Part shown: positions 43,223 through 63,153 of the stretch, piece after piece
How positions within the stretch are numbered: the first letter of the stretch is position 1
Layout: every line of letters begins with the position of its first letter
NCBI GenBank assembly: GCA_000002445.1
Contig: CP000068.1
Location: 640,001 to 704,000 of the forward strand
Reading direction: 5' to 3'
Origin: Trypanosoma brucei
Lineage: Eukaryota
Length of the DNA: 64,000 nucleotides
Program-made: the position numbers and the translations under genes
Notes under the pieces: model-generated
The model's input: the letters and a program-made list of their open reading frames with translations, nothing else
Databases searched by the model: none
What the model was told of the DNA's origin: nothing

Positions 43223-44143
43223 TTATTCTCTCTCCCTCTTTCTGTTTCTGTTGCTTGTTGATTGCATACCTCCTCTGTCTCTGAGGGTGTCTGGACTATT
43301 CCTGCGTCCGGTGCTTTTCCTGCTAGCTCCACATTCGGCAATAAGGGGGAAAGTTGCAGAAGGGAGAGTGGGTTGTATGACTGTTACATTGAATGAGGAC
43401 TTCACCTGCGGCCGGCCCCGTTCAACCGCAATGAGAAACTGCGCCAGCCTTTTGGAGAAGCATATATCCTGCACACACTCACCTTCTACCGCAAACCTGA
43501 CACGTAACTCCTTCAAACCTAGACAGCTCATCGGGTGCAGCGACGTTTCTTCGCAGTCGCCGCGTTGGCTGGTAACAGCGCACTCTACCTTCATACCGTG
43601 CATCTTCTTTTGATGTAGGGTGAGGCCAGTTTTGCTAGCACACTGCCTTCCGCATGTCGTGCACACCAACATGGATGCGTTTGTATGTGAGGAATTAGTG
43701 GCACACAATTTTGTGCTTTTGCTGCATTTAAGCTCGACTCCCTCACCTTTGTGGAAAGCCTTACAGTGTCGGATGAAGGAGTCCCTGCAACTGAGCACTT
43801 TTTGGCACACACCACACCGCACCTCGCCTTTCCCCGGGACGTCAACATTTCCCTCACTGGCACGCTTACGAGGGAATTGCACCACCACCACGGTACCGTC
43901 TTCCGTCACTATGCTCTTATGTTTGAATTTCTGGTGTAGTGACAGGGAAGAGCGTGTACCGAAGCTCGCCTCGCACAGGTCACATTGAAACGGCAGCTTC
44001 CGTGTATCCTGAGGGGCTGGCGCTGCTGGGGCTCTACCATCTCCTTGTACTGAGTCCTCGTTCTCTCGCCCCCTTTTCACGCGGCAACTACCGCTGCCTA
44101 TGCCATGTATTGTTCTAAGGTGGTGTAATAGTCGGCCTGGCAC
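43223..44143 (-). pseudogene. L1Tc C-terminal C2H2 zinc-finger (nucleic-acid chaperone) segment
   Basis: Three C2H2 fingers: FQCDLCEASFGTRSSLSLHQKFKH, VRCGVCQKVLSCRDSFIRHCKAFHKG and LVCTTCGRQCASKTGLTLHQKKMHG. In a different frame from the RNase H segment. Confidence 0.7.
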
Positions 44144-45636
44144 ATTCTAATTTGGAGGCACAGAGGGTACAATGAAGCACCTGCGGTCTCATCAAAACTC
44201 GTGTGCTTCGATGGTAAAGGAACGATCGCCACCACTGGAGGGGGCTCCGGGGGGATGTCCACTGCAGGTGTTGCATCGCCGTATTTGATCCTCCGGATGG
44301 CATCAGCTCGCACAAAGCCATGTTTGTTTACCATATGCGTTACAGCACTCGAGCGGCATTGGTATGTGGCATCATATTCCGTACATTTGGTCGGTTCGGA
44401 GGTTCTCTGAAGAGTGCGTGTCGCAACAGATGGGGTTGTTTGTGTTTGTATTGTTGTTCCTATCACTGCATGTTGCGGATTGCACCATCGGCACTGTGGA
44501 GGCACACTCGGGTTGATCTTTCGCAACATCCATCCATAGTGTCTTGAAGACCCAACCCGAAAGCGTGCCAATACCGTTTCTTCTTCCCTCGTTAGTTCTT
44601 CCTTATGTTTTGTTGGAAAGTGATTGCCCGTGATACCAAACCTATGAGTGTTCTCATGGACTTCTTCCGACCTAAGCACTCGCTTCGCATAAGCAATGAT
44701 GTCGGGGATCCATGTGTCTCGCAACTGTGGTAAATCTGCGGCCTTTTTGGCCATGTCATCACAAACCTCATTCCGTTTCACGCCACAATGGCCAAACACA
44801 AATTGCAGTCGGATACGTATCTTCCTTCTCTGAACTTGAAGCAGAAGCCTCCATAGTCGTCTTAGAATTGGGTCCGTTACGGCTAGGGGGCCTGTCTGCA
44901 GTGCTGTTAACATTGACAGCGAGTCAGAGAAGATGGACAACCTGCTCGGTGTGCTTCTGTGTGCCGGAAGCCATTTCAGCAGCCGTTGCAGTCCTATCTC
45001 TAATGCTACGCATTCCGCTCTGTAACTGCATGAGAGTTCCCCTGCTCCGGTCTTGGGTGCGCAAATCAGCGTGTTGTTTCTATAGAGCAGGGCAGCTGCT
45101 CCGGACTTCTCACCGAGGGACACGGATCCATCAGTCCACAATTCGTAGTGCTCTCGCCGCGGTGGCTCCTTCCCCCTCCGTGCAAAATGCCGTGCAATCC
45201 ACTTTTCGGAAGCTTCCCTTTTGACATCGTCAGGGTCATCAGCGCACACAGGCCTAATCTGCGTGTGAAATATCGGTCGGCAGCTGTGGCGGAGCGTCGA
45301 TGTCTCTAGTTGGTGCTCGCGTGGCTCAATGCGGAGGTGGGGGTAGGACCGCATGATGCGGGAATGTAGGGCTCTGAGTGGATGTTTGCTGTGGTATACT
45401 TCCTCAGCACTGCGCCGCAAACATCCGCCTCGTGACTCACACATCAGCATGAACTTCATGCTGCGCACAAGAGTGGTCGTCTTGAGTGGGAGGAGGTTTG
45501 CTTCCAGCAGAGAGTCCTCTTCGCGCGTCCCATGCGGTATGCAAGCTATGATGCAACTACCCTTGTGTTGTGCTGCTGCAAGGAGGTCGCGACTTCGTTC
45601 CGAAGCGTCCCAGTACCATACCTCAATGCCATACAT
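44098..45636 (-). pseudogene. L1Tc RNase H-containing segment
   Basis: ELWTDGSVSLGEKSGAAALLYR...ELSCSYRAECVALEIGL matches the RNase H fold motif (TDGS...E...AE). Separated from the RT segment by an in-frame stop. Confidence 0.65.
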
Positions 45637-45720
45637 GGTGTGTGCCTGTACGAGTGCTAGATAAAAAGCTCTCAGTACTTGTCGTCTTGGCCCCCATGTA
45701 TAAACTGAGATGGCTGTTAT

Positions 45721-47394
45721 CTACAGTAGTCGGAAGTCCATCTTGCGTCTCGTCTCGGCCGCATGTGTTGCCATCCCTTGCAGACACTGGAATGTTACTC
45801 CTAGAAGCTTCGGTGTCCTGTCAGCTCCTATTCTTTCGCCGTCCAGTCGTAATGTAAGGGGGTGGCGCTCTGTACACCCGAAGAGTGTGCACTTTGTTTT
45901 CGCTACATTGATAGACATGAAGTACTCTTTTGACCACTGTAACACCACGTTGAGGCCGCATTGTAGTGTGTGGTTGATGACATCCCTCTCTGTGTGCCTC
46001 GCAAGTAGCGTCAGGTCGTCTGCAAAGAATCCGTGCTGCAGTAACGGCACTTCTGCAAGGCGTTGGCTCAACGAGTTCATGACAATAATGAACATGATTG
46101 GGCCAAGGACAGTTCCTTGTGGCACTCCTCGCTCAAATGTTCTGCTTCTGGAAAGCCTTTCCCTGAGTCTCACTCTGCCAGTTCGGTTACTCAGAAATGA
46201 TACGCACCACTTCACAATGTGGGGTGATACCTTCATTTTGTGCATTTCCCTCGCAATTTTGTCGTGGTCTACTGTATCGAATGCCTTCTCGTAGTCGACG
46301 AATACAGCACCCGTACGATATTGGTGCGTGGGACGGCAGAGGGCAGCGCGGACGTGCAGCAGCTGTTCGAGCGTTGAGCATCCGGGGCGAAAGCCTGATT
46401 GCTGCGGCGTCAGCTGGGACTCAACAGTGTCTCTAAGTCTCGCGGCAATTATGCGCTCCATGACTTTGCAGAGACAGCTCGTGAGCGTCACAGGCCTGTA
46501 AGAATCGAGGTCCTCCGCCTTTTTTCCGGCCTTCAGGATGGGGATGATAACACCGGTCTTCCATGCAGGCGGCACGACTCCCGTTCGTAGGCTCTCACTG
46601 AATAGCCTCAGAACAACATTCAGCGCTGTTCTACCGAGATGTTGTATTGCCTCGTTGTATAAGCAATCAGGTCCGGCTGCGGATCCACTCGGTAGCAGTT
46701 TGATCGATCTCCGTAGTTCAGCCATCGTGATGGGACTGAACTCACTCGCTATCGTCTTTATGTGTGCTGGTGGGTGTGAGTTGGGGTGCCTTCTTGCGCG
46801 GGACGAGTACAGTTTAATGAACCTCTCAGCTTGACAGTAGTCCGTGATGGCCGCGTTATCAACAAGTACAGTCGGTGTGGTTAGTGGTCGTGGCGCATAT
46901 ACCTTCTTGACAATGTGCCAACTGCAGCGGTCTGACACCGCAAGTCTGGAGCATAGCGTGCTCCATCTCTTCTTTGTGGTACGGTCCAGAATCTGCTTAC
47001 GCGTGGCTACCAACTTTTCCCTTCGGTGGGAGGGTCCGCATCCAGCAATCTCTTCATCGAGTTTCGCGAGCGCAGGTATCCAATGTGGTGGCGTTGCTCT
47101 GCAGCCACGGGGGACGGATGCCTTCGTCGCAATGCGGATGGCGGAGCTCAATATCTGTTCCAGGGTGTTGACTTTCTTCTCTCTACCAATTTTCCTGCAG
47201 ACCTCGTCAACCTTGAGACGGAAATTCCTCCAGTCAGCTTTTAGCCATGCGTACATGGGCTTTTGAAGCCGCGGGCAACTCAGTGCATCTGTGTCGTCTC
47301 CAACGATAACGTCGAAAAATATGTGATGGTGATCGCTATCGGGAGAATACAGCGATGTCCACGTGTACACTGTGCAATTCCTTGACAGTGTCAC
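45721..47394 (-). pseudogene. L1Tc reverse-transcriptase segment
   Basis: RT motifs YRPVTLTSCLCKVMERIIAARL, FRPGCST, and the FADD box (LQHGFFADDLTLLA). Lies between the endonuclease and RNase H segments. Confidence 0.8.
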
Positions 47395-47460
47395 ATCAGG
47401 GGTGGACTCCCCGTGGTGGCGCGCGTACCTGGTGCACTCACCAGTGTTGCAGACCAGAAC

Positions 47461-48066
47461 CTAGTTGTCAATGCACCACTGTGTGAGGGTTTCATCCTTG
47501 GTATTTGATGGGCTCGCGCGATCCCATGCCAACGCGTGTGCGTTAGCGTCTGCACCGATGAGCTGGGCACTGTCAGTCGTCAGAAGCGTATCTAGGTCAG
47601 TTGCCGTGAAGGTGCGTTTTGGTGGGATGTATGCTGACGTGACGGTCAGCGCCGTTCCACGTGCAAGGTGAATTGTTGCATGCACTTGTTCAATGCGACC
47701 AACAACGGCCATACCGGTCTCGACTAGTAGGTCCTCCTTTACTAGTATTGGTACACCACCTTCTTTGCAGTTACGAGCTATTCCGTGATGTTGATAGCCA
47801 GCAACGCTAAAGCAAGCCGCCTCTCCAGGCGTCATCCTTGTCTCGCTCAACAGACAAAAGGCGATCCGCTCATCAACAAGGGTTTTGTGGAGTGCTAATC
47901 TCTTTCCTTGAGATAGCCCCGGCGCAGTTCCACTGCATCCCGCGCAACGACGGGCCGGGATTCTCTTCCACATCACCGGACAGCAGCATCTTACTGCGGA
48001 TGATACTGCTGATGGCACGCTGGCACGTGCCCAGGGGCCGACAAATGAAAAACGGTGTCCCAGCAA
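47461..48066 (-). pseudogene. L1Tc AP-endonuclease segment (interrupted)
   Basis: Sits immediately downstream of the 2A motif and upstream of the RT segment, i.e. where L1Tc carries its AP endonuclease. The ORF ends in an in-frame stop before the RT ORF. Confidence 0.6.
47951..47980 (-). other. 2A-like self-processing peptide motif (SGDVEENPGP) at N-terminus of L1Tc polyprotein
   Basis: Minus-strand translation gives ...KMLLSGDVEENPGPSLRG.... The canonical D(V/I)ExNPGP 2A motif sits upstream of the endonuclease, as in L1Tc. Confidence 0.75.
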
Positions 48067-48136
48067 GACGCTGCTGATCCCTGTGCTGTATGATGCCGTA
48101 GCCGGAGCAAAGCAGTGTTCCCCATGAAAGGAACGC

Positions 48137-48213
48137 CGCTGGCTCTTGGCTTCCCCCGATGATACGGGGTACTGGACCCTGGCACCACGTGGAGGTGGCC
48201 GGCATCGCCAGGG
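48137..48213 (-). promoter_or_regulatory. Pr77-like 5' hallmark of L1Tc/ingi elements (internal promoter / HDV-like ribozyme region in the literature)
   Basis: Reverse complement begins CCCTGGCGATGCCGGCCACCTCC...GTACCCCGTATCATCGGGGGAAGCCAAGAGCCAG, the conserved first 77 nt of L1Tc/NARTc/ingi. Confidence 0.7.
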
Positions 48214-48227
48214 GCATTGTGAGAATT
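48214..48227. repeat. Target-site duplication (right copy) of the L1Tc insertion
   Basis: gcattgtgagaatt immediately after ...ggcatcgccaggg (reverse complement of CCCTGGCGATGCC). Confidence 0.75.
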
Positions 48228-48610
48228 AATCCCACGCCACCACCCCTTGCTTGGAATGCGTCTCTTCAGGGTCCCTCGGCACGTTTTTTTTTTGTGGCGC
48301 CCCATTCCGTCGCGTTACTCAGTAAGTGGTGATATAACTGTAGTCACTTCAGATGCTTCCATGTAGCTGCGCGTTTTTCTTCGGTACTTTTTGGTTGGCA
48401 CGCTTATCTTCTGCCTGTTTCACTGCACTGCGAGAATCTGCGTGCTTTGTTGTAATTTTTGTACGCCACCCTCTGTCAATGCGATTGTTCCTAAAGTGTG
48501 GAGAGGCTTCGTTGCACGTGTGTCGTGCGAACGCTCAGTGCAACCACGCGCCTGAAAAGTCTTTCATGCTTCTAGACTTTGGTGATCCTATGCAGGGGGT
48601 TTGCTCCAGT

Positions 48611-48639
48611 TCTGCTTCCGTATTATTATTATTATTATT
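48611..48639. repeat. (TTA)n microsatellite
   Basis: gtattattattattattattatga. Confidence 0.85.
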
Positions 48640-50538
48640 ATGATCATTTGTTATGCCCTCTCTTTTGAATGTCGTTTCTTCATCATCTTGTCCTCGTTTC
48701 CTCGTTGCTCACAGTGTCTGCGGGCAGTTTCTGTCGACTCAAACGGCTACGTTGGAACTGACGTGCGTTCCGCACGCATTTAAGGTTCATGTAAGTCATT
48801 GGCACTTGTGCCATAGTCTCCTTCTCGTCGGTGAGGAAATTGAATGCTGTGCCCGTCTAGTGTGGCAGCCGTAGGGGGGCCCTGTTGTGACGTCGTATGT
48901 TGTTTACAACTGCTCTTTATGAGCCGCAACTGGAGTTCTTGAACCTCCGAGGGCTTGTGCGCTGTGGTGGCGACATAAAGAGGAGACCAAATTTCGCTCG
49001 GGGTTCAGTGTAGTTACCGTGTTCCAATGTAGCATCTCTGCTTGCGAATGGGGGAAAAGAACATGCGCCTCGTTTTCTCTCTCGCTCCGCACTAAAGCAT
49101 GAGGTGCTCTGACACCGGTGCCGTGCTATCCCTCTGTGCTTCTGCTTCCCTGAGCTATGCCCAGCTGCCTTTCCGTCTCGAGTTTTGGCACTGAAGCAGA
49201 CTTTCGCAAACCCTACAGCGTGCATGGCTTCCGCGCACCCATGCATAGCTATGCATTTTCTAGGGCTAGCGTTTCACTGTTCCTAGCTTGTCACCCCAAC
49301 TCCTTTTCCAGGGTCTAAACTAGGACGCGGGCGCGTGTTTGTTTTGATTTATGTGAGTGTTCGGGAGTGTCTGACGGAGGTTGCGTTGACGCGACGTGAC
49401 ATACTCCAAGTCAATGCTTTCAGGTTTTGATTCCCATTATTATCTAACCATGGAACCCGGGGAGGGAGGGGGGGGGGGCGTTTTGTCCCGCAACGATCGT
49501 GGAGCGGTAAAAAGCAAGGCGCTGCCATGGCGCCGCTGCGGGAGTGCGCCGTTGCGCGCTGTCTGGCACGCTCGTGGTGAATAGCGCGCGCTCATGAGCG
49601 CGTGAGGCCTTCTATTGTTCCGGCACCCCGCTACGCTGATACCAGCTGAATTCAGGGTTAGGAGCACCCATCAGCATGTCAAATGCTGCGGCGAGGTGGT
49701 GGGGAAAGTCTCTCCAGTTGGGGCTCCATCAGTTACAAGCTACCCGCTTACAGCGGCTGACTCCGTATAGAAAATTATCACTGCGTTTCCGCGCCGCGTT
49801 GGAAGCGTTGCCAACAGACATGGAGACGTCAAGTCTCTCCCAGATTCAGACAAAAAATCGAAAAAAAGAACAGCCAGGCTAAAAAAAAAAAAATTGGCAC
49901 ATTAATAGATAGGAGATAGGAGATAAATGCTGTCAACAATACACTCCATGTTAAACATTTCCTTCTCCACCCAGAAGAGGTGGGTAAAATACCAACGTTG
50001 CCCCTAACGACCCTATATGGGGGTGGCACCAACCGTGCAGTTGAAACCAATATCAACTTGATGGGAAGAGCCTTCCCTGAAATCGATATCTTAAAGAGTA
50101 AAAGGCTGTCGAGGCCGTACACGAGACTTACCAACGCAGCTAGTGTTGTCTCGTTTTATTCCGTGTCTCCCATCAATGCGAGATGTTCACATATGACATT
50201 CGATGCCACACTATTGACCGGTGGACGGTGCGAGATTGCATCACCACAGCCCTTCCCTCAATAAGTACACCAAGTCCAATACAAACAAGATAATGAAGCA
50301 CACCTTGCCTTTCCACATCACGGCCGATAGCGTTTGGTACCCAGTTTTCTTTCGATATAGCGAATTAAAGAAAGTAGCACCATCGTTGACCAGCACAAAA
50401 CGATCAGGAAGTTACAAAGACAGAATCAACTAAACAGCCCAAAAACGACAAAGTTCCTTATTTTCACATACAGCACAACCCAAAGAAAAGCACCCCTACT
50501 ACGTTTCCAGGAGCAGCAGAGGTTTGTTGCCGCCTACC

Positions 50539-51210
50539 GCTGTCAAAAGCATTCCATGTTATAATTTGTTTGCCGCGCTTGGTCTCGTGATGCTGAGTGA
50601 TTGTGCCTGTGTTTGTGGTTTCACCCCCTCTTGTCACGCCTTCCGCGGTTGGTGTGATTCCATTTGTGTTTGTTTCATGTGTTTTGTTTCCCTCACTACA
50701 TTGTGTGGTGAGGTTTGCTACTCTTATGATGAGTGCGCCTTGTGCCGCGTGCGTGTGTAGTGCTCATTTACCACTTGCTGCTTTCCCTTAACCTATTTCT
50801 GGATGAAAGAGACTTTACTCTTGTTTTTACCCACGTTCAAGCCGACACGGATAACAATGGCCACCTGCCCTAAACACCTGTTCGGGAAGTACCATCTAAA
50901 GAGTTTTAATGGCAAAAGCGCCTTGGAGGGCGAACTGGCCGGTGTGACACTGGAGCTTGGTGAAGAAGACGGTCGTGTCACAGTACGCGCGAAGGCGGGA
51001 AATGCGATGAGTGGTGTGTTGAAGTATGAAGGTGGGATGCTCACCGGTCCCTTGATGTCTACAATGATGATGCCTCCCCCTGCTGTCTTGAAAGTAGAAC
51101 GAACCCTCGTGTCCGGTTTTTCCAGCGGTATGCATGCGCTCCGTGAAGGCTCTTCTCTTACGCTTTCGCATAAGACAGACACGATGGTGTTTGAGGCCGT
51201 GGAGTAAACT
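50539..51210 (+). repeat. Truncated, diverged leading copy of the tandem-array unit (5' flank plus small-protein gene only)
   Basis: Alignable with 52026-52687, 56208-56869 and 60390-61051 from aagcattccatgttataatttgtttgccgcgcttggtctcgtgatgctgag through the stop of the small ORF. Flanks differ on both sides. Confidence 0.85.
50803..51207 (+). CDS. Small single-domain protein, diverged paralogue (array copy 0); candidate FABP/calycin-like beta-barrel domain
   Basis: Probable start at second Met (50857): MATCPKHLFGKYHLKSFNGKSALEGELAGV. About 116 aa from that Met. Differs from copies 1-3 in the C-terminal third (MSTMMMPPPAVLKVERTLVSGF vs ISTIMLSPPALMEVESAFSSGF). Confidence 0.6.
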   Translation: MKETLLLFLPTFKPTRITMATCPKHLFGKYHLKSFNGKSALEGELAGVTLELGEEDGRVTVRAKAGNAMSGVLKYEGGMLTGPLMSTMMMPPPAVLKVERTLVSGFSSGMHALREGSSLTLSHKTDTMVFEAVE

Positions 51211-52039
51211 TGTTTCTCGACATGCAGTTACCCTTTTATTTTCTACTTGTGTTGCCACTACACTTTCGTGTTTGTGGTCGGTGTTAGCGAACACTACCTT
51301 TGTTTACCACTTAGTGTTATGTTATTTATTTTTGAAATCGGGTTATTATTTTTATTTTTTTTTTCCAGGGTGTAGATATTTGAACCCTAATAAACGTCAA
51401 CGTTTTGTTAATTTATACGGGGGTACGTGTTTTTTTATTTGTTATCGAGGTATAGGCCTTCTGTCATGGTGACTACTGGACATTTTCGCTTCCTCTTTGC
51501 TGGATGCTCCCTGAATACTCAACGTAATAGTATGAAGAAAAGTGAGATGGTAGGCGGGGAATAAGTGTATGTAAGGAGTATATATTGTACGGACATCGGT
51601 AGTGGTGATGATGTTGAGATTCTCTCTCTTAAAGGTTATATCTTTGTATCAACTGATTCGGTACATAAGATCAGATTTTAAATACTATCTTCTATTTATT
51701 ATTTATTATGGAGTGTGATAATTAAAATGTAAGGGCAAATTATCTAACTGCTTATGATCAGTTGATTAGGTAGCGAGTAGTTTAGATAGTATCTTATATT
51801 TAGGAGGTGAGGTGTCCATCTGTAGTAATGGAAGAAATTGTTTGTAAGGATCGACGGCAGTGCAGATAAAACAAATATCGAAGTATATATATATGTATAG
51901 AAGTTTGGCTCAGCGACAGAGATACAATATTCTGCAAAAATAAGATATAAATATTTCATCATTACCCTACCATGCACAGATTATCGATGTGTATCCAACA
52001 AGGTGGGCGCGTGCGACTCCTTCAAGCATTCCATGTTAT

Positions 52040-52279
52040 AATTTGTTTGCCGCGCTTGGTCTCGTGATGCTGAGCGATTGTGCCTGTGTTTGTGGTTTCA
52101 CCCCCTCTTGTCACGCCTTCCGCGGTTGGTGTGATTCCATTTGTGTTTGTTTCATGTGTTTTGTTTCCCTCACTACATTGTGTGGTGAGGTTTGCTACTC
52201 TTATGATGAGTGCGCCTTGTGCCGCGTGCGTGTGTAGTGCTCATTTACCACTTGCTGCTTTCCCTTAACCTATTTCTGG
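52040..52279 (+). promoter_or_regulatory. GT/pyrimidine-rich upstream region of the small-protein gene (putative polypyrimidine tract / trans-splice acceptor zone)
   Basis: tgtgtttgtggtttcaccccctcttgtcacgccttccgcggttggtgtgattccatttgtgtttgtttcatgtgttttgtttccctcac directly upstream of the ORF in every unit. Trypanosomatid trans-splicing needs such tracts (established). The site itself is not mapped. Confidence 0.3.
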
Positions 52280-52684
52280 ATGAAAGAGACTTTACTCTTG
52301 TTTTTACCCACGTTCAAGCCGACACGGATAACAATGGCCACCTGCCCTAAACACCTGTTCGGGAAGTACCATCTAAAGAGTTTTAATGGCAAAAGCGCCT
52401 TGGAGGGCGAACTGGCCGGTGTGACACTGGAGCTTGGTGAAGAAGACGGTCGTGTCACAGTACGCGCGAAGGCGGGAAATGCGATGAATGGTGTGTTGAA
52501 GTATGAAGGTGGGATGCTCACCGGTCCCTTGATATCCACTATTATGCTCTCGCCCCCTGCTTTGATGGAGGTGGAGAGTGCTTTCAGTTCTGGATTTTCC
52601 AGCGGTATGCATGCGCTCCGTGAAGGCTCTTCTCTTACGCTTTCGCATAAGACAGACACGATGGTGTTTGAGGCCGTGGAGTAA
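52280..52684 (+). CDS. Small single-domain protein (array copy 1); candidate FABP/calycin-like domain
   Basis: Same gene as 56462..56866 with two aa differences (K/E, P/V). Probable start at MATCPKH (52334). Confidence 0.6.
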   Translation: MKETLLLFLPTFKPTRITMATCPKHLFGKYHLKSFNGKSALEGELAGVTLELGEEDGRVTVRAKAGNAMNGVLKYEGGMLTGPLISTIMLSPPALMEVESAFSSGFSSGMHALREGSSLTLSHKTDTMVFEAVE

Positions 52685-53110
52685 AGGTGACGGGCATACG
52701 TTAGTGTGTGTTTTGTTTATACGGTGATGTAAAAAATGACTTAAATTTTCATCTGTTTTTCGGTTATATTGTAGGTGCATATTCAACTTTCTCAATACCT
52801 AATGGCGGTACTATTAGTATTATTTTTTTTAAATACTTTCCTTGTTCACGAATATGTGATATCTACTGATTCGTATGAGCACTTTTGTTTTTTTATGCGT
52901 CTTCCTGTCTTCGCTAGCGTTTTGTTGTTGATGTATTTCTTGATTTGCTTTTCGTTTCTTTCTTTATGCTCTATACCTTTTTTTGCCTTTCCCTTGTATC
53001 CGCATATTCTCGTCCTCTGGTCTCTACTCCGCCATATTTATTCATGTAGTGCATGTAGTACTGGTTTGCATCCCGTGGAAACCTCTGCTTTTGTGTAGCA
53101 CCCGCGATTT

Positions 53111-54541
53111 ATGGCATCAGACAATGAGTCCACTGTCGAGGTGAGGGAGGCTCGTGACACCGAGGAGTACGATGCGCAGGCTGCTGCTCGTGGGCTGTGT
53201 GACAAGGCATGTGACATAAAGAGCCTTCTACATGGGCACGTTGAGTCGACGCGTGCCCTCGAAAGGGTTGTTGGGGAATTTTGCACTCGCGACATCGCTG
53301 AAGAGGATGCCTTCCGGAAAATCTCTCTCGACGTTATGCATGCCGAAATGCGGGCGCTACGGGACCTTCACTACGTTGCATTTTCCCAGCGGTGGGCAGA
53401 GGTAGAAAAGGGCTCCGCTGCAGAGGAGGTCACCAGCCTACCTTCAGCGGATAGGAGTGTTGGAAGTTGCGTGTCCCACCTTCTGACCTCGCTTTGTGAG
53501 GGAAAGCCTGATGCAACTTTTAGCCTTTCAGAGTATTTTGGTGTCGCTGACGTGCTTATGGAATGGCGCTCGTTAACTCCAGCATCACAGGAACAGTTGG
53601 ATATTCTTCTTCTGTCAATAACCAGGAGCGTGGAGGACATTTCATCATGTGTCCTGCTGCTGAATGGGGTTTTATATACACCATCTGATTCATTTGATTG
53701 TTGTGAACTCACTCGACGGGAGCTCACCGCGATAATTGGAAGTGGGGGACCCGCTTCCGCGGAAGAGGCACTTGTTGGATGGCTTAATTTTATTGTGAGA
53801 CGCTCGTTACTCAACCAGACCCTTCTCCAGAGGCTGATGAGTTCGACCATCGAGTTTCGGAGAAGTGATCTTTGCCTACAGGGCGACGGCGCAGACGTGC
53901 TGGTTGTAGTCGACCACAGGCGGTTGTTGAACTCCGCTGTCTTTCGTGGGTTTTTCTTTTCTGGGGAGTTGCGTGGTGTAGAGGCTATTGGGGCGCAGGT
54001 GAACTTGATGTCAGTATTATTTGCAGGCAACGGCAGCGGAGATCAGCTTGACATAGAGAAGTGTATCGCCGACATTTTCCGCGCTTTATGGGAGCAGCAG
54101 GAACTGCTTTCATGTAAGTGGAAGAACGTTACTGTGACCCTCGCTGTTCAAGCCAGGAAGGACGTCGGAGCCGGCGCTCAAACCAAGTTGATGGACTTCG
54201 TTGTGCTCGATCTTCGCCCCCTGTCGCCGAACATTCCTTTTCAGTGGCACTTTACATGGGGCGAGGTCTGTGCACTAGGCCAGCTCAGTACGAATGACGG
54301 AGATAGAGCACGACCCCTGGACATTCCTGTTTTCAAGACGACTCGTGTAGCTGTAGCCTCTCTGGGGCCTTATGATAAACTTTCACGCATAATGTTCCCT
54401 TCGATTAACGAGTATTTACGTCTTACGCGGAAAGAGCCACCATCTGTAGCCCCAGTCGCCTACGCTGCCGTCGCGGCGGCGCTTGTCGTCGGGGGATTTA
54501 TTGTTGGAAGCTGCATACTCGGTTCCCGGCGAAGACGATGA
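53111..54541 (+). CDS. 476-aa protein with single C-terminal transmembrane segment (tail-anchored-like), array copy 1
   Basis: No N-terminal signal peptide (MASDNESTVEVREARDTEEYD). Single hydrophobic segment AYAAVAAALVVGGFIVGSCILG, 5 residues from the end, followed by SRRRR-stop. Repeated at +4182 and +8364 with one substitution (T/A). Confidence 0.7.
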   Translation: MASDNESTVEVREARDTEEYDAQAAARGLCDKACDIKSLLHGHVESTRALERVVGEFCTRDIAEEDAFRKISLDVMHAEMRALRDLHYVAFSQRWAEVEKGSAAEEVTSLPSADRSVGSCVSHLLTSLCEGKPDATFSLSEYFGVADVLMEWRSLTPASQEQLDILLLSITRSVEDISSCVLLLNGVLYTPSDSFDCCELTRRELTAIIGSGGPASAEEALVGWLNFIVRRSLLNQTLLQRLMSSTIEFRRSDLCLQGDGADVLVVVDHRRLLNSAVFRGFFFSGELRGVEAIGAQVNLMSVLFAGNGSGDQLDIEKCIADIFRALWEQQELLSCKWKNVTVTLAVQARKDVGAGAQTKLMDFVVLDLRPLSPNIPFQWHFTWGEVCALGQLSTNDGDRARPLDIPVFKTTRVAVASLGPYDKLSRIMFPSINEYLRLTRKEPPSVAPVAYAAVAAALVVGGFIVGSCILGSRRRR

Positions 54542-54789
54542 GCAGTATCCGCCTCTGCTTTTTTCTGTTCATCTTGTTTTATTGACTTTAGAGCCATATT
54601 TAGGCTCCGCTATGCGTCCTTGTTGGTTAGAGGTTTAGTATTGTTGTACCTGACTCTGTGACTGATGGTGGGTGCCGCACCGTATCTGCGGCATGGGGTG
54701 CTTGCGTGAGTGAGGATCCACACTTATTTGACCGCTGTTTGCTATGAAATGTTTCCCTCCTTTCCTACTTGTAGCCAAGTTAATATTGC

Positions 54790-56130
54790 ATGATGGATAT
54801 TACTGCGTTGTGCGGAAACTATCGGTTGTGTGAGATTGACGGAAAGACGTGCTCCGAGGAAGTGTTTATTGCTCTAGAGGCGTCTGGTGGTGGTGTTGAG
54901 GTTGTTGCCATGGTGGGCAACACCCTGTGCGGGCGCGCTTGTGTGAATGGGGACAGGATTAGTGCGAACCTTACTAGCACTATGAGGCAGGTGGAAGAAG
55001 AGATGATGAGGATTGAAAGCCTGCTGACATGCGGGTTCAAGGCCGGGTTTACCTGTGAGCAGAGTGACATCATACTGACGCTGACTGGAGAGCAGAGTGT
55101 CTTCACATTGGAGCGTGATGTATTATGTGATATAAAGTTTGGTGAGTATACCCTCTGTGAGTTCAATGGGGAACCCGTGGCTTCGGACGAGATGGTGCTC
55201 ACCCTGCTCCCCGCTGTGGTAGATGGTGCCCTTGTGATTGCACAGTTCAAAAACTCTCTCCGCGGGGAGCTGGAGCTTCGCAATGGTCGTCTCCGCGGCG
55301 TTATTGCGTCGACGATGTGCGAGGTGGATGGTTCTTTGAAGTGCGCGGAGGAAGCGTTTTTGTCAGCTACCAGGGGTGATGGCATAAAAGTGTGCTCTGA
55401 CGACCACCGGCTTGTGCTTAAGGACGACCACAATGCGTTCGTTTATGTGCTGCGTCCAGCAATTCCAGAGAACCTTGTGAGCGAGTACTTACTGAAGAGC
55501 TTCAATGGCGAGTCTGTAGAGGCTGAGAGGCGTGTGATGTTCCGCTTTTCCCAATCAGCTGACGGTGTCGGTACGGATGTTGTGGCGAGTGTTGCCAATA
55601 CGATCAGGGGGAAGGTAAGAGTGGATGACGGAAAGTTAAAATCGAAGGTGATGTCATCACGAAGGAAAGGGAATGAGTCGGAGATGCGATTTGAGAATGC
55701 TCTGAAGGAAGGGTTCAAGGCTGGGTTTTCGTGGTCTCTGGACGACACGGTGCTGACTCTTGAGTGCGACGGGAACCGCCTCATCTTCGTGAAAGTTGCC
55801 GCTGTGCCGTGCGAAAATGGTAGGCCGGGGTATATTGGTGATAAGGTTTCAAGATGCTTTAAGGCCCACGACGATGCTCGAGTGTACCGTATCATCAACA
55901 CTGTGGAATCGAAGTGGGCATTTTACAATGACACGACCGAATACAATTTTAATGTGTCAGTGACTTTTGGGCGGAAATCAAAGGTACGCGGTCTGGCCAA
56001 CACGTCAATTGAGACAAATGAGGAAGGCTTGACGGTTGCCAGCGTGTCAGTCGCCCCTGGTGCGACGGAGATGTTCGTTGCTGGGGATGTAAACGGGTAC
56101 AAGTGCTCCTATGACGCAGTGCACCAGTAG
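54790..56130 (+). CDS. 446-aa multi-domain protein built from 3-4 repeats of the small-protein domain, array copy 1
   Basis: Internal repeats of about 110 aa, each beginning with a small-protein-like motif: residues 1- MMDITALCGNYRLCEIDGKTCSEEV, 118- GEYTLCEFNGEPVASDEMV, 231- SEYLLKSFNGESVEAERRV. GFKAGF recurs in repeats 1 and 3. Confidence 0.7.
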   Translation: MMDITALCGNYRLCEIDGKTCSEEVFIALEASGGGVEVVAMVGNTLCGRACVNGDRISANLTSTMRQVEEEMMRIESLLTCGFKAGFTCEQSDIILTLTGEQSVFTLERDVLCDIKFGEYTLCEFNGEPVASDEMVLTLLPAVVDGALVIAQFKNSLRGELELRNGRLRGVIASTMCEVDGSLKCAEEAFLSATRGDGIKVCSDDHRLVLKDDHNAFVYVLRPAIPENLVSEYLLKSFNGESVEAERRVMFRFSQSADGVGTDVVASVANTIRGKVRVDDGKLKSKVMSSRRKGNESEMRFENALKEGFKAGFSWSLDDTVLTLECDGNRLIFVKVAAVPCENGRPGYIGDKVSRCFKAHDDARVYRIINTVESKWAFYNDTTEYNFNVSVTFGRKSKVRGLANTSIETNEEGLTVASVSVAPGATEMFVAGDVNGYKCSYDAVHQ

Positions 56131-56461
56131 CCGACATTGCGTTGAGTGTTGATCCGGATGTAAGATACACATATGTATGCGGAGGTGGGCGCGTGCGACT
56201 CCTTCAAGCATTCCATGTTATAATTTGTTTGCCGCGCTTGGTCTCGTGATGCTGAGCGATTGTGCCTGTGTTTGTGGTTTCACCCCCTCTTGTCACGCCT
56301 TCCGCGGTTGGTGTGATTCCATTTGTGTTTGTTTCATGTGTTTTGTTTCCCTCACTACATTGTGTGGTGAGGTTTGCTACTCTTATGATGAGTGCGCCTT
56401 GTGCCGCGTGCGTGTGTAGTGCTCATTTACCACTTGCTGCTTTCCCTTAACCTATTTCTGG

Positions 56462-56866
56462 ATGAAAGAGACTTTACTCTTGTTTTTACCCACGTTCAAG
56501 CCGACACGGATAACAATGGCCACCTGCCCTAAACACCTGTTCGGGAAGTACCATCTAGAGAGTTTTAATGGCAAAAGCGCCTTGGAGGGCGAACTGGCCG
56601 GTGTGACACTGGAGCTTGGTGAAGAAGACGGTCGTGTCACAGTACGCGCGAAGGCGGGAAATGCGATGAATGGTGTGTTGAAGTATGAAGGTGGGATGCT
56701 CACCGGCGTCTTGATATCCACTATTATGCTCTCGCCCCCTGCTTTGATGGAGGTGGAGAGTGCTTTCAGTTCTGGATTTTCCAGCGGTATGCATGCGCTC
56801 CGTGAAGGCTCTTCTCTTACGCTTTCGCATAAGACAGACACGATGGTGTTTGAGGCCGTGGAGTAA
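56462..56866 (+). CDS. Small single-domain protein (array copy 2)
   Basis: Identical to copy 3. Confidence 0.6.
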   Translation: MKETLLLFLPTFKPTRITMATCPKHLFGKYHLESFNGKSALEGELAGVTLELGEEDGRVTVRAKAGNAMNGVLKYEGGMLTGVLISTIMLSPPALMEVESAFSSGFSSGMHALREGSSLTLSHKTDTMVFEAVE

Positions 56867-57292
56867 AGGTGACGGGCATACGTTAGTGTGTGTTTTGTTT
56901 ATACGGTGATGTAAAAAATGACTTAAATTTTCATCTGTTTTTCGGTAATATTGTAGGTGCATATTCAACTCTTTGAATTTCTAATGGCGGTACTATTAGT
57001 ATTATTTTTTTTAAATACTTTCCTTGTTCACGAATATGTGATATCTACTGATTCGTATGAGCACTTTTGTTTTTTTATGCGTCTTCCTGTCTTCGCTAGC
57101 GTTTTGTTGTTGATGTATTTCTTGATTTGCTTTTCGTTTCTTTCTTTATGCTCTATACCTTTTTTTGCCTTTCCCTTGTATCCGCATATTCTCGTCCTCT
57201 GGTCTCTACTCCGCCATATTTATTCATGTAGTGCATGTAGTACTGGTTTGCATCCCGTGGAAACCTCTGCTTTTGTGTAGCACCCGCGATTT

Positions 57293-58723
57293 ATGGCATC
57301 AGACAATGAGTCCACTGTCGAGGTGAGGGAGGCTCGTGACACCGAGGAGTACGATGCGCAGGCTGCTGCTCGTGGGCTGTGTGACAAGGCATGTGACATA
57401 AAGAGCCTTCTACATGGGCACGTTGAGTCGACGCGTGCCCTCGAAAGGGTTGTTGGGGAATTTTGCACTCGCGACATCGCTGAAGAGGATGCCTTCCGGA
57501 AAATCTCTCTCGACGTTATGCATGCCGAAATGCGGGCGCTACGGGACCTTCACTACGTTGCATTTTCCCAGCGGTGGGCAGAGGTAGAAAAGGGCTCCGC
57601 TGCAGAGGAGGTCACCAGCCTACCTTCAGCGGATAGGAGTGTTGGAAGTTGCGTGTCCCACCTTCTGGCCTCGCTTTGTGAGGGAAAGCCTGATGCAACT
57701 TTTAGCCTTTCAGAGTATTTTGGTGTCGCTGACGTGCTTATGGAATGGCGCTCGTTAACTCCAGCATCACAGGAACAGTTGGATATTCTTCTTCTGTCAA
57801 TAACCAGGAGCGTGGAGGACATTTCATCATGTGTCCTGCTGCTGAATGGGGTTTTATATACACCATCTGATTCATTTGATTGTTGTGAACTCACTCGACG
57901 GGAGCTCACCGCGATAATTGGAAGTGGGGGACCCGCTTCCGCGGAAGAGGCACTTGTTGGATGGCTTAATTTTATTGTGAGACGCTCGTTACTCAACCAG
58001 ACCCTTCTCCAGAGGCTGATGAGTTCGACCATCGAGTTTCGGAGAAGTGATCTTTGCCTACAGGGCGACGGCGCAGACGTGCTGGTTGTAGTCGACCACA
58101 GGCGGTTGTTGAACTCCGCTGTCTTTCGTGGGTTTTTCTTTTCTGGGGAGTTGCGTGGTGTAGAGGCTATTGGGGCGCAGGTGAACTTGATGTCAGTATT
58201 ATTTGCAGGCAACGGCAGCGGAGATCAGCTTGACATAGAGAAGTGTATCGCCGACATTTTCCGCGCTTTATGGGAGCAGCAGGAACTGCTTTCATGTAAG
58301 TGGAAGAACGTTACTGTGACCCTCGCTGTTCAAGCCAGGAAGGACGTCGGAGCCGGCGCTCAAACCAAGTTGATGGACTTCGTTGTGCTCGATCTTCGCC
58401 CCCTGTCGCCGAACATTCCTTTTCAGTGGCACTTTACATGGGGCGAGGTCTGTGCACTAGGCCAGCTCAGTACGAATGACGGAGATAGAGCACGACCCCT
58501 GGACATTCCTGTTTTCAAGACGACTCGTGTAGCTGTAGCCTCTCTGGGGCCTTATGATAAACTTTCACGCATAATGTTCCCTTCGATTAACGAGTATTTA
58601 CGTCTTACGCGGAAAGAGCCACCATCTGTAGCCCCAGTCGCCTACGCTGCCGTCGCGGCGGCGCTTGTCGTCGGGGGATTTATTGTTGGAAGCTGCATAC
58701 TCGGTTCCCGGCGAAGACGATGA
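57293..58723 (+). CDS. 476-aa tail-anchored-like membrane protein, array copy 2
   Basis: Identical to copy 3. One aa differs from copy 1. Confidence 0.7.
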   Translation: MASDNESTVEVREARDTEEYDAQAAARGLCDKACDIKSLLHGHVESTRALERVVGEFCTRDIAEEDAFRKISLDVMHAEMRALRDLHYVAFSQRWAEVEKGSAAEEVTSLPSADRSVGSCVSHLLASLCEGKPDATFSLSEYFGVADVLMEWRSLTPASQEQLDILLLSITRSVEDISSCVLLLNGVLYTPSDSFDCCELTRRELTAIIGSGGPASAEEALVGWLNFIVRRSLLNQTLLQRLMSSTIEFRRSDLCLQGDGADVLVVVDHRRLLNSAVFRGFFFSGELRGVEAIGAQVNLMSVLFAGNGSGDQLDIEKCIADIFRALWEQQELLSCKWKNVTVTLAVQARKDVGAGAQTKLMDFVVLDLRPLSPNIPFQWHFTWGEVCALGQLSTNDGDRARPLDIPVFKTTRVAVASLGPYDKLSRIMFPSINEYLRLTRKEPPSVAPVAYAAVAAALVVGGFIVGSCILGSRRRR

Positions 58724-58971
58724 GCAGTATCCGCCTCTGCTTTTTTCTGTTCATCTTGTTTTATTGACTTTAGAGCCATATTTAGGCTCCGCTATGCGTC
58801 CTTGTTGGTTAGAGGTTTAGTATTGTTGTACCTGACTCTGTGACTGATGGTGGGTGCCGCACCGTATCTGCGGCATGGGGTGCTTGCGTGAGTGAGGATC
58901 CACACTTATTTGACCGCTGTTTGCTATGAAATGTTTCCCTCCTTTCCTACTTGTAGCCAAGTTAATATTGC

Positions 58972-60312: not shown

Positions 60313-60643
60313 CCGACATTGCGTTGAGTGTTGATCCGGATGTAAGATACACATATGTATGCGGAGGTGGGCGCGTGCGACTCCTTCAAGCATTCCATGT
60401 TATAATTTGTTTGCCGCGCTTGGTCTCGTGATGCTGAGCGATTGTGCCTGTGTTTGTGGTTTCACCCCCTCTTGTCACGCCTTCCGCGGTTGGTGTGATT
60501 CCATTTGTGTTTGTTTCATGTGTTTTGTTTCCCTCACTACATTGTGTGGTGAGGTTTGCTACTCTTATGATGAGTGCGCCTTGTGCCGCGTGCGTGTGTA
60601 GTGCTCATTTACCACTTGCTGCTTTCCCTTAACCTATTTCTGG

Positions 60644-61048
60644 ATGAAAGAGACTTTACTCTTGTTTTTACCCACGTTCAAGCCGACACGGATAACAATG
60701 GCCACCTGCCCTAAACACCTGTTCGGGAAGTACCATCTAGAGAGTTTTAATGGCAAAAGCGCCTTGGAGGGCGAACTGGCCGGTGTGACACTGGAGCTTG
60801 GTGAAGAAGACGGTCGTGTCACAGTACGCGCGAAGGCGGGAAATGCGATGAATGGTGTGTTGAAGTATGAAGGTGGGATGCTCACCGGCGTCTTGATATC
60901 CACTATTATGCTCTCGCCCCCTGCTTTGATGGAGGTGGAGAGTGCTTTCAGTTCTGGATTTTCCAGCGGTATGCATGCGCTCCGTGAAGGCTCTTCTCTT
61001 ACGCTTTCGCATAAGACAGACACGATGGTGTTTGAGGCCGTGGAGTAA
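60644..61048 (+). CDS. Small single-domain protein (array copy 3)
   Basis: Identical to copy 2. Confidence 0.6.
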   Translation: MKETLLLFLPTFKPTRITMATCPKHLFGKYHLESFNGKSALEGELAGVTLELGEEDGRVTVRAKAGNAMNGVLKYEGGMLTGVLISTIMLSPPALMEVESAFSSGFSSGMHALREGSSLTLSHKTDTMVFEAVE

Positions 61049-61474
61049 AGGTGACGGGCATACGTTAGTGTGTGTTTTGTTTATACGGTGATGTAAAAAA
61101 TGACTTAAATTTTCATCTGTTTTTCGGTAATATTGTAGGTGCATATTCAACTCTTTGAATTTCTAATGGCGGTACTATTAGTATTATTTTTTTTAAATAC
61201 TTTCCTTGTTCACGAATATGTGATATCTACTGATTCGTATGAGCACTTTTGTTTTTTTATGCGTCTTCCTGTCTTCGCTAGCGTTTTGTTGTTGATGTAT
61301 TTCTTGATTTGCTTTTCGTTTCTTTCTTTATGCTCTATACCTTTTTTTGCCTTTCCCTTGTATCCGCATATTCTCGTCCTCTGGTCTCTACTCCGCCATA
61401 TTTATTCATGTAGTGCATGTAGTACTGGTTTGCATCCCGTGGAAACCTCTGCTTTTGTGTAGCACCCGCGATTT

Positions 61475-62905: not shown

Positions 62906-63153
62906 GCAGTATCCGCCTCTGCTTTTTTCTGTTCATCTTGTTTTATTGACTTTAGAGCCATATTTAGGCTCCGCTATGCGTCCTTGTTGGTTAGAGGTTT
63001 AGTATTGTTGTACCTGACTCTGTGACTGATGGTGGGTGCCGCACCGTATCTGCGGCATGGGGTGCTTGCGTGAGTGAGGATCCACACTTATTTGACCGCT
63101 GTTTGCTATGAAATGTTTCCCTCCTTTCCTACTTGTAGCCAAGTTAATATTGC

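What the first reader, a model, noticed from the sequence alone, without database searches (positions are those of the whole stretch)
50539..52001. Array edge: truncated leading copy with its own AT-rich 3' flank and graded sequence divergence (concerted evolution signature)
Copy 0 keeps only the 5' flank and the small-protein gene. Downstream it diverges into a unique ~800-bp AT-rich spacer instead of the 476/446-aa genes. Its protein differs at >10 positions from copies 1-3. Copy 1 differs from copies 2 and 3 at 2 positions in the small protein and 1 position in the 476-aa protein, while copies 2 and 3 are identical. This shows homogenisation in the array interior and escape at the edge. The edge copy may be a functionally diverged paralogue.
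Basis: seen in the sequence. Interest (0 to 1): 0.5.

Follow-up and report, generated by a model that had tools for sequence, protein, structure and literature searches.

The report
Trypanosoma brucei META1 gene array edge
This is the leading edge of the known META1/META2 tandem gene array on Trypanosoma brucei chromosome 5: the first META1 copy is an intact gene kept nearly identical to its neighbours by gene conversion, apart from a 61-base island and a different 3' flank, which is an ordinary pattern for trypanosome gene arrays.

Summary
The window is T. brucei brucei TREU927 chromosome 5. Copy 0 (Tb927.5.2160, a 116-aa META-domain protein) is followed by 792 bp at 34.5% GC. Three 4182-bp units follow, each holding META1, a 476-aa membrane protein and META2. 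Units 2 and 3 are identical. Unit 1 differs from them at 11 bases, all in its first 1.5 kb.

- Copy 0 does not escape homogenisation. Outside a 61-nt patch (51057-51117, 25 differences, synonymous sites saturated) it differs from copy 1 at 2 of 601 bases. It also shares strain-specific substitutions with all other copies.
- The patch is specific to each paralogue and is conserved in T. b. gambiense and T. b. equiperdum, so it is not a sequencing error.
- The spacer is unique only within the window. Its first 358 nt (51209-51566) recur after the trailing META1 copy (Tb927.5.2260 type) in other T. brucei assemblies. The two edge copies therefore share a 3' flank.
- In T. b. equiperdum IVM-t1 the spacer is missing and the type-A gene is fused to unit 1.

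The array itself (Toh 2021) and this kind of mosaic concerted evolution in T. brucei arrays (Jackson 2007) are both published. Interest is low.

The parts
43223..48305 (-). Context: a degenerate ingi-like non-LTR retrotransposon. It is the last feature on the minus strand before the strand switch.
   Evidence: Pfam finds RVT_1, Exo_endo_phos_2, RNase_H and C2H2 fingers on successive minus-strand ORFs. A 2A-like GDVEENPGP peptide is present. The same element sits at the same place in DAL972.
48306..50546 (.). Divergent strand-switch region. Domain-bearing genes to its left are all on the minus strand; the META array to its right is on the plus strand.
   Evidence: ORF orientation, no Pfam hits on ORFs here, AT-skew flip near 50.4-50.5 kb. 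PMC7952579 states that the META families lie at the beginning of a polycistronic unit.
50547..50856 (+). 5' flank 'f' of copy 0 (GT/pyrimidine-rich; inferred splice-acceptor region and 5' UTR). It is shared with every META1 copy.
   Evidence: 100% identity blocks. One private difference at 50598. The strain-specific bases at 50616 and 50746 are shared by all copies in a genome.
50857..51207 (+). META1 copy 0 CDS (Tb927.5.2160, type A, 116 aa). The longer 134-aa ORF starts at 50803.
   Evidence: Exact match to AAZ11331/XP_844890. Pfam META domain, 54.6 bits. Outgroup proteins start at the second ATG. PMC7952579 gives 116 aa.
51057..51117 (+). Divergent island: 25 of 61 bases differ from copies 1-3. 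It encodes residues 67-87: the conserved ST.M strand, the PPP loop and most of the single long helix.
   Evidence: 0 of 100,000 permutations; pS 0.74, pN 0.27. (AF2 model, pLDDT 90.7, helix 75-90). The island is paralogue-specific across three strains.
51085..51117 (+). The half of the island that is private to copy 0 (17 of 33 bases; residues 77-87 of the helix). In this half the trailing type-C copy equals the interior type B.
51209..51566 (+). Xa: the 3' flank (probable 3' UTR) of copy 0. It also occurs after the trailing META1 copy in other T. brucei assemblies, and it holds one UA(U)6 motif at 51353.
   Evidence: DAL972 self-match 7430-8442 = 13096-14108. Alignment. IVM-t1 trailing copy. 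Logan contigs L001-L003. Motif.
51567..52000 (+). Xb: junction sequence between Xa and unit 1. It is found only at the leading edge of TREU927 and DAL972 and is absent from the IVM-t1 locus. Its origin is unknown.
52001..56182 (+). Array unit 1: META1 type B (52334-52684), 476-aa membrane protein (53111-54541) and META2 (54790-56130; 3 META domains + DUF1935).
56183..60364 (+). Array unit 2: META1 56516-56866, 476-aa gene 57293-58723, META2 58972-60312.
60365..64000 (+). Array unit 3, cut by the window end. It is identical to unit 2 over 3636 nt.

Best explanation
The region is the leading edge of the META1 / 476-aa / META2 tandem array. The array opens a plus-strand polycistronic unit on T. 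brucei chromosome 5.

Shown: the locus reads strand switch, then META1(A)-Xa-Xb, then [META1(B)-U-TM476-META2] x3, then, beyond the window, META1(C)-Xa'-LRR gene. U is the 3' flank of the interior copies. An upstream and a trailing META1 flanking the TM/META2 genes also occurs in T. conorhini, so that arrangement is old.

Shown and inferred: recombination between copies (gene conversion and unequal crossing-over) keeps the 5' flank and most of the CDS of all five META1 copies virtually identical within a genome. It also keeps the Xa flank of the two edge copies nearly identical to each other.

Shown and inferred: a 61-nt segment, encoding the conserved strand, the loop and the single helix of the META domain, is not homogenised. 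It keeps three position-specific versions across T. brucei subspecies: A in the leading copy, B in the interior copies, C in the trailing copy. Synonymous sites in it are saturated. I infer that it is a relic of old paralogue divergence. I also infer that its density of mismatches blocks heteroduplex formation (mismatch-repair rejection), with or without selection for isoform-specific helices.

Inferred: trypanosomes regulate genes mainly through 3' UTRs, so the two 3' flank classes (Xa on the edge copies, U on the interior copies) give two mRNA classes for almost the same protein.
For: - Identity of the locus: exact protein matches to TREU927 AAZ11331-11340; gene IDs and position in PMC7952579.
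- Repeat structure.
- Clustering of the differences and dS = 0 outside the patch against pS 0.74 inside it.
- Genome-specific substitutions shared by all paralogues, copy 0 included, against a patch that stays paralogue-specific across TREU927, DAL972 and IVM-t1.
- A shuffled S/N polymorphism at 51011.
- Xa repeated after the trailing copy: DAL972, IVM-t1, three Logan assemblies.
- A natural recombinant: IVM-t1 has type A fused to U-TM476 with exactly the 1477-bp copy0-copy1 interval missing.
- Synteny in T. conorhini of META1 - TM - META2 - META1 - LRR - acyltransferase.
- The general phenomenon is documented for T. brucei arrays, including divergent end copies with remodelled UTRs (PMC1855330).
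Against: - The trailing copy's flank could not be read in TREU927 itself. Its proteins are not in the position index, so the Xa sharing is shown in other strains only.
- The perfect identity of units 2 and 3 could partly reflect how a repeat was assembled.
- Copy number differs between assemblies: 3 units here, 1 in DAL972, 2 in IVM-t1.
- The mismatch-repair barrier and any functional difference between isoforms or between 3' UTR classes are inferences.
- Both flank classes carry one UA(U)6 motif, which argues against a large stage difference.
- Literature hints are indirect and confounded by multi-mapping reads: 2160 and 2260 are both enriched with EIF4E3 (PMC9585242), and interior-unit genes are listed as down after ZC3H45 RNAi (PMC7952579).
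Confidence: 0.8

Rival explanations
1. Assembly or sequencing artefact. The copy-0 differences are errors, or the array was built by pasting a collapsed consensus unit several times, so the gradient says nothing about biology.
For: Units 2 and 3 are identical over 3636 nt. The T. equiperdum OVI assembly collapses the unit into one 4195-bp contig that breaks at the patch. Unit number differs among assemblies.
Against: The type A, B and C patches recur base for base in three independent assemblies and in Logan contigs. There is no indel or frameshift compensation in the patch. The long-read IVM-t1 assembly also has two units with identical 476-aa proteins.
Confidence: 0.07
2. Copy 0 is a truncated, decaying remnant of a full unit at the array border, drifting towards a pseudogene.
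For: It lacks the 476-aa and META2 genes and is followed by non-homologous sequence.
Against: The ORF is intact, with a full META domain scoring 54.6 bits. In the patch pN (0.27) is well below pS (0.74). The type-A sequence is conserved in three subspecies with one synonymous change. Its 3' flank is a conserved sequence shared with the trailing copy. Tb927.5.2160 mRNA is reported as induced on differentiation to procyclic forms (PMC2753553).
Confidence: 0.03
3. The 61-nt island was imported by a short ectopic conversion from a distant META-domain donor. It is not a relic of old paralogue divergence.
For: There is 41% divergence over 61 nt with sharp borders and no indels. The type-C copy is a mosaic, A-like in the 5' half and B-like in the 3' half.
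Against: No donor was found in the window, including the three META domains of META2 (blastn-short). The blastn-short donor search covered the window only; the fetched T. brucei loci showed no further META1 copy, but the patch was not searched against them. Jackson 2007 found ectopic conversion very rare in T. brucei arrays. The rest of the genome could not be searched.
Confidence: 0.1
4. Diversifying selection drives rapid amino-acid change in the helix of copy 0, giving a new function at the first position of the transcription unit.
For: Type A looks derived at 3-4 helix positions relative to the T. conorhini, T. vivax, T. cruzi and Leishmania sequences. The changes include charge changes, E to K and S to R.
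Against: pN/pS is below 1 and synonymous sites are saturated, which rapid recent adaptive change would not produce. There are only 22 codons, so power is low.
Confidence: 0.12

Closest known systems
T. brucei META-domain gene cluster Tb927.5.2160-2260 (described in Toh et al. 2021, PMC7952579); orthologue of Leishmania META1/META2
   Same: It is the same locus. The proteins are identical to the TREU927 entries. [quoted passage not shown]
   Different: In the passages of that paper retrieved by term search, the paper treats the five small genes as one family. Those passages do not mention the 61-nt island, the three position-specific isoforms, the shared edge 3' flank or the IVM-t1 deletion.
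Mixed concerted and divergent evolution in T. brucei tandem arrays (Jackson 2007, PMC1855330)
   Same: Shared features: tandem units homogenised by allelic gene conversion, conversion tracts that cross CDS/UTR borders, and end copies with remodelled, non-alignable UTRs that keep orthology while the others evolve in concert.
   Different: The main text of that paper does not name this array. Here the divergent part inside the CDS is unusually short (61 nt) and saturated, and the two end copies share one 3' flank with each other.
Kinetoplastid paralogue sets with near-identical CDS but distinct 3' UTRs (T. brucei hexose transporters THT1/THT2 and PGK A/B/C, cited in Jackson 2007; Leishmania HSP70-I/II, from my own knowledge)
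   Same: Near-identical coding regions carry unrelated 3' flanks starting right after the stop codon. In those systems the 3' UTR sets stage-specific expression.
   Different: Differential expression of the Xa and U classes of META1 mRNA has not been shown. Both flanks carry a UA(U)6 motif.
Bacterial HslJ / META domain (PDB 2KTS)
   Same: It is the only solved homologue by sequence (E 6e-9). It shares the strand, loop and helix segment that the island encodes.
   Different: It is a bacterial heat-shock lipoprotein. It says nothing about the array architecture.

Membership tests
META1 (single META-domain protein of kinetoplastids) | Pfam META domain (PF03724) above the gathering score in a protein of about 110-120 aa | tested here: met
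   Copy 0 scores 54.6 bits and copy 1 scores 57.4 bits against a cut-off of 24. Homologues of 112-120 aa occur in T. conorhini, T. vivax, T. cruzi and Leishmania.
META1 (single META-domain protein of kinetoplastids) | Synteny with META2 (three META domains plus a calpain-like DUF1935) | tested here: met
   The 446-aa neighbour has 3 META stretches plus DUF1935. The same neighbourhood occurs in T. conorhini.
META1 (single META-domain protein of kinetoplastids) | META/HslJ fold | tested here: inconclusive
   The AF2 model is confident (pLDDT 90.7) and the profile matches HslJ 2KTS by sequence. No fold search was run.
Tandem array under concerted evolution | Paralogues in one genome share substitutions that distinguish strains | tested here: met
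   Bases 50616 and 50746 are the same in all four TREU927 copies and differ in all DAL972 and IVM-t1 copies. Base 50777 is specific to all three DAL972 copies.
Tandem array under concerted evolution | Mosaic (conversion-tract) distribution of differences | tested here: met
   25 of 27 differences fall in 61 of 662 nt; 0 of 100,000 permutations reached this, and the largest count seen was 13. Type C is A-like and then B-like.
Tandem array under concerted evolution | Evidence of unequal exchange between copies | tested here: met
   IVM-t1 lacks exactly the 1477-bp copy0-copy1 interval. Unit number is 1, 2 or 3 in the three assemblies.
Edge copy that has escaped homogenisation | The edge copy diverges along its whole length and does not share genome-specific changes | tested here: not met
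   There are 2 differences in 601 nt outside the patch and dS = 0. Copy 0 shares the genome-specific bases.
Truncated pseudogene remnant | Disrupted ORF or relaxed constraint | tested here: not met
   The ORF is intact in three strains and pN is below pS in the patch.
Paralogues differentially regulated through distinct 3' UTRs | Unrelated 3' flanks that begin at the stop codon | tested here: met
   Homology ends 1 nt after TAA. X and U share no similarity.
Paralogues differentially regulated through distinct 3' UTRs | Different abundance, stage profile or translation for the two mRNA classes | not testable with these tools
   Only indirect hints from the literature. A search of the supplement found nothing.

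The most novel reading that the evidence does not exclude
T. brucei keeps three position-locked META1 isoforms. They differ only in the strand, loop and helix segment of the domain: A leading, B interior, C trailing. The island is held by selection against a background of continual conversion. The two edge genes use a shared 3' UTR (Xa) that gives them translational control distinct from the interior copies, for example through the EIF4E3 complex. The array would then encode both dosage (interior copies) and regulated variants (edge copies).
Probability: 0.25. Interest if true: 0.35.

Novelty: new member of a known kind. Interest (0 to 1): 0.2.

Why it matters
It matters little beyond the field. 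The locus is annotated in a reference genome, and concerted evolution with divergent end copies is documented for T. brucei arrays.

Three modest points are useful.
- The five 'identical' META1 genes fall into three conserved isoforms and two 3' flank classes. This affects how multi-mapping RNA-seq, proteomic, RNAi and tagging data for Tb927.5.2160-2260 should be read.
- The 61-nt island, together with the IVM-t1 deletion, is a clean natural example of where conversion and crossover tracts stop in trypanosomes.
- META1 is a virulence-associated protein in Leishmania, and TrypTag places one T. brucei copy at the flagellar tip (PMC9981465). Isoform-specific helices may therefore be worth testing.

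Tried and rejected
- The word-indexed protein search with copy 0 returned only its own 90% cluster. Outgroups came from the exhaustive representative search instead.
- Position look-ups for the TREU927 proteins P0009, P0003 and P0002 found nothing on record. The sequence beyond the window end in TREU927 itself therefore could not be read. DAL972, IVM-t1 and Logan contigs were used instead.
- The META2 look-up gave only a collapsed 4195-bp T. equiperdum OVI contig.
- Rfam and tRNA scans of the whole window found nothing.
- A search for a donor of the patch in the window found only chance hits of 10-14 nt.
- The spacer X, the flank U and the strand-switch region have no other copies in the window.
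- Frameshift compensation in the patch is rejected. A gapped alignment gains nothing.
- The supplement of PMC7952579 holds none of the gene IDs as searchable text.
- Logan contig L001 follows X as far as 51899, whereas DAL972 and IVM-t1 diverge at 51566 and L002/L003 end near 51531-51544. I treat the L001 extension as a probable graph path through copy 0's spacer, not as evidence.
- L006 joins an unrelated gene 31 nt upstream of the 476-aa ATG. I treat it as chimeric.
- Xa, Xb, U and f have no detectable match in the T. cruzi or T. conorhini loci.

Full report
WHAT THE WINDOW IS

The proteins encoded at 50803-51207, 52280-52684, 56462-56866, 53111-54541, 57293-58723 and 54790-56130 match exactly the entries AAZ11331-AAZ11340 of Trypanosoma brucei brucei TREU927. 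These lie on a 1,608,198-bp contig, which is chromosome 5. Pfam assigns the small protein a META domain. It assigns the 446-aa protein three META stretches plus DUF1935, making it the META2 orthologue. The 476-aa protein has no significant family and ends in a hydrophobic tail.

Toh et al. 2021 (PMC7952579) describe these families. [quoted passage not shown]

My own reading of the window agrees with that position:
- Every domain-bearing ORF from 1 to 48305 is on the minus strand, including UPF1 at 34982-37516 and an ingi-like retroelement at 43223-48305.
- The array runs on the plus strand from 50547.
- The AT skew flips near 50.4-50.5 kb.

CHECK OF THE OBSERVATION

The repeat finder gives four copies of the 5' flank plus gene start, spaced 1477, 4182 and 4182 bp apart.

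The alignment shows that copy 0 matches the others without gaps from 50547 to 51208, one base after TAA. The flanks then become unalignable. The interval 51209-52000 is 792 nt at 34.5% GC and has no other copy in the window. The 3' flank U of the interior copies is 36.6% GC, so AT-richness is the norm for these intergenic regions.

The units compare as follows:
- Units 2 and 3 are identical over 3636 nt.
- Unit 1 differs from unit 2 at 11 bases, all between 52376 and 53486.
- Four of those bases are in META1 (K15E and P65V in 116-aa numbering), six are in U, and one is in the 476-aa gene (T126A).

Copy 0 differs from copy 1 at 12 residues and from copies 2/3 at 14.

1. The differences are not graded along the gene.
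- Between copy 0 and copy 1, 25 of the 27 differences in the 662-nt homologous block lie in 61 nt (51057-51117). Only 50598 and 51011 lie outside it.
- Random placement never gave more than 13 differences in any 61-nt window in 100,000 trials.
- Inside the patch the Nei-Gojobori proportions are pS 0.74 (saturated) and pN 0.27. Outside it there are 0 synonymous differences in 66.7 synonymous sites.
- The patch has no indels and is not a frameshift-compensated stretch.
- No donor sequence exists in the window, including the META2 domains.

2. There is a fifth META1 copy beyond the window end (AAZ11341, type C).
- Its patch is A-like in the 5' half and identical to B in the 3' half.
- The same three types occur in T. 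b. gambiense DAL972 and T. b. equiperdum IVM-t1, each at the same array position. Type A carries only one synonymous change. The differences are therefore real and stable, not errors.

3. Copy 0 takes part in concerted evolution.
- In an 11-sequence alignment, bases 50616 and 50746 have one state in all four TREU927 copies and another in all copies of DAL972, IVM-t1 and a Logan assembly. The exception is 50616 in the IVM-t1 type-A copy, which is a 1-nt gap in that assembly.
- Base 50777 is specific to all three DAL972 copies.
- The S/N site at 51011 is distributed differently among the copies in each strain.
- The flanks and most of the CDS therefore evolve in concert across all copies, while the patch keeps orthology by position.

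4. The spacer is not unique in the genome.
- The complete DAL972 locus (L005, FN554968.1:634149-655579) reads: ingi, META1(A), spacer, META1(B), 476-aa gene, META2, META1(C), LRR gene, acyltransferase.
- Its region 7430-8442 (flank f, the type-A gene and 352 nt downstream) matches 13096-14108 (flank f, the type-C gene and 352 nt downstream) at 97.7%.
- In the 3' flank part the two differ at one base.
- In window coordinates this shared part, Xa, is 51209-51566.
- The remainder, Xb (51567-52000), occurs only at the leading edge of TREU927 and DAL972.
- IVM-t1 also has Xa after its trailing copy.
- Three Logan assemblies link META2, type C and Xa.

5. The leading edge is structurally polymorphic.
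- In IVM-t1 the strand-switch region and the type-A gene (L012 1-1988 = window 49216-51208) run straight into U and the 476-aa gene (L012 1328-10352 = window 52024-61049).
- The 1477-bp interval holding X and the 5' part of copy 1 is therefore missing.
- A single crossover in the 91 identical bases between the patch and the stop codon explains this.
- The reverse derivation would need Xb to come from nowhere. TREU927 and DAL972, two well-separated lineages, share the long form.
- I therefore infer that the long form is ancestral within T. brucei.

6. The basic layout is old.
- T. conorhini has META1, two ORFs of 438 and 248 aa, META2, META1, an LRR gene and an acyltransferase in the same order as the T. 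brucei trailing edge.
- T. cruzi repeats META1 every ~4.74 kb.
- Old paralogy of an upstream and a trailing META1 fits the saturated synonymous divergence in the patch.

STRUCTURE

An AlphaFold2 model of the 116-aa protein built on a 10-sequence alignment is confident (mean pLDDT 90.7). It shows a beta-rich domain with one long helix at residues 75-90.
- The patch encodes residues 67-87.
- The 5' half (67-73) is the conserved ST.M strand and the PPP loop.
- The copy-0-private half (77-87: VLKVERTLVSG against LMEVESAFSSG) is the core of the helix and includes E-to-K and S-to-R changes.
- The only solved relative by sequence is E. coli HslJ, 2KTS.
- Compared with outgroups, type A looks derived at three or four helix positions and type B looks derived in the strand/loop half. 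Type C is closest to the outgroup consensus in both halves. This rests on few sites.

MECHANISM

Shown:
- the tandem units;
- genome-specific homogenisation of all copies;
- a sharply bounded island that is not homogenised;
- near-identity of the two edge 3' flanks;
- a natural deletion between copy 0 and copy 1;
- different unit numbers among assemblies.

Inferred:
- Gene conversion and unequal crossing-over act continually on the array.
- The island persists because 41% mismatch blocks heteroduplex extension. It is known that mismatch repair restricts recombination between diverged sequences in T. brucei; this is my own knowledge and was not tested here. Selection for isoform-specific helices may also contribute.
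- Because the homology ends at the stop codon, the edge copies (Xa) and the interior copies (U) give two mRNA classes.

Literature hints:
- Tb927.5.2260 is among the ten most abundant procyclic mRNAs (PMC2771046).
- Tb927.5.2160 is induced during differentiation to procyclic forms (PMC2753553).
- Both edge genes, but none of the interior ones, appear among mRNAs enriched with EIF4E3 (PMC9585242).
- The 'uniquely down after ZC3H45 RNAi' list holds the interior-unit genes 2190, 2220, 2230, 2240 and 2250.

These hints are weak because reads in the identical CDS map to several genes. Both flank classes carry one UA(U)6 motif, which is the RBP10 recognition motif according to my own knowledge. A large stage difference is therefore not expected.

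COMPARISON WITH WHAT IS KNOWN

The array is published (PMC7952579). Jackson 2007 (PMC1855330) surveyed T. brucei tandem arrays and reported what is seen here:
- concerted evolution by allelic conversion;
- conversion tracts that cross CDS/UTR borders;
- first and last copies with curtailed or entirely different non-coding regions;
- divergent end copies with remodelled intergenic sequences that keep orthology while the others converge.

The particular details found here are not in the passages of the papers I searched and read. They are the 61-nt saturated island conserved by position, the 3' flank shared by the two edge copies, and the IVM-t1 deletion. They are refinements of a known kind, not a new kind.

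VERDICT

It is an intact gene with a conserved alternative 3' flank, not a truncated remnant. I rate it a new member of a known kind, with low interest (0.2).

Noticed in passing
window 43223-48305 (-); also L005 1-5106: A degenerate ingi-like non-LTR retrotransposon sits directly next to the strand-switch region. It is split into at least four ORFs carrying endonuclease, RT, RNase H and C2H2 fingers, and it has a 2A-like GDVEENPGP peptide near its N-terminus. It is at the same place in T. b. gambiense.
   Followed up: partly
L012 1-2414 (T. b. equiperdum IVM-t1 CM010676.1:733578-753928): The leading type-A META1 is fused directly to the interior 3' flank and the 476-aa gene. The 1477-bp copy0-copy1 interval (Xa, Xb and the 5' part of copy 1) is missing, while Xa is present after the trailing copy.
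   Followed up: yes
window 51011 and equivalent bases in L005, L012, L001: A Ser/Asn polymorphism (AGT/AAT, residue 52 of the 116-aa protein) sits in different copies in different strains. S is in copy 0 only in TREU927, in types B and C in DAL972, and in type B only in IVM-t1. This is a polymorphism shared and shuffled among the paralogues.
   Followed up: partly
window 50547-50802, 52024-52279, 56206-56461, 60388-60643: The 5' flank repeated with every META1 copy is strongly G+T-rich (about 64% G+T in 56131-56461). It lies at the very start of a polycistronic unit. I did not test whether it has any role in transcription initiation beyond supplying a splice-acceptor tract.
   Followed up: no
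window 51353-51360, 52821-52828, 57003-57010, 61185-61192: There is one TATTTTTT (UA(U)6) motif in Xa and one in each interior 3' flank. The motif is enriched in the window overall: 13 were found against 3 expected.
   Followed up: partly
L014 1-8692 (T. conorhini MKKU01000419.1): Synteny is conserved: META1, ORFs of 438 and 248 aa, META2, META1, LRR protein, acyltransferase. In this assembly the gene at the position of the 476-aa gene is called as two ORFs with no Pfam hit.
   Followed up: partly
L013 (T. cruzi MBSY01000112.1): META1 (120 aa) recurs every ~4.74 kb, each time preceded by a 280-aa ORF with no Pfam hit. No genes were called in the ~3.3 kb between repeats.
   Followed up: no
L006 1-2320 (Logan ERR7929157_721): The contig joins a 511-aa gene with a PARP_regulatory (VP39-like) domain to a point 31 nt upstream of the 476-aa ATG. 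This is probably a chimeric graph path, not a real junction.
   Followed up: partly
L012 5820-6188: The interior META1 of IVM-t1 has a 2-nt gap near its 3' end (window equivalent 51192-51193), which gives a 122-aa product with an altered C-terminus. It could be a long-read indel error or a real frameshift.
   Followed up: no
window 49600-50500 and 49881-49893: A stretch that is A-rich on the plus strand includes a run of 13 A. It lies just upstream of the array, has no ORF with a family hit and has no other copy in the window. It may be a remnant of a retroposon tail or the pyrimidine tract of the minus-strand unit.
   Followed up: no
L005 8779-9126 (equivalent to window ~51870-52240): DAL972 carries an annotated 115-aa ORF across the Xb/5'-flank junction with no Pfam hit. 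It is probably a spurious gene call.
   Followed up: no
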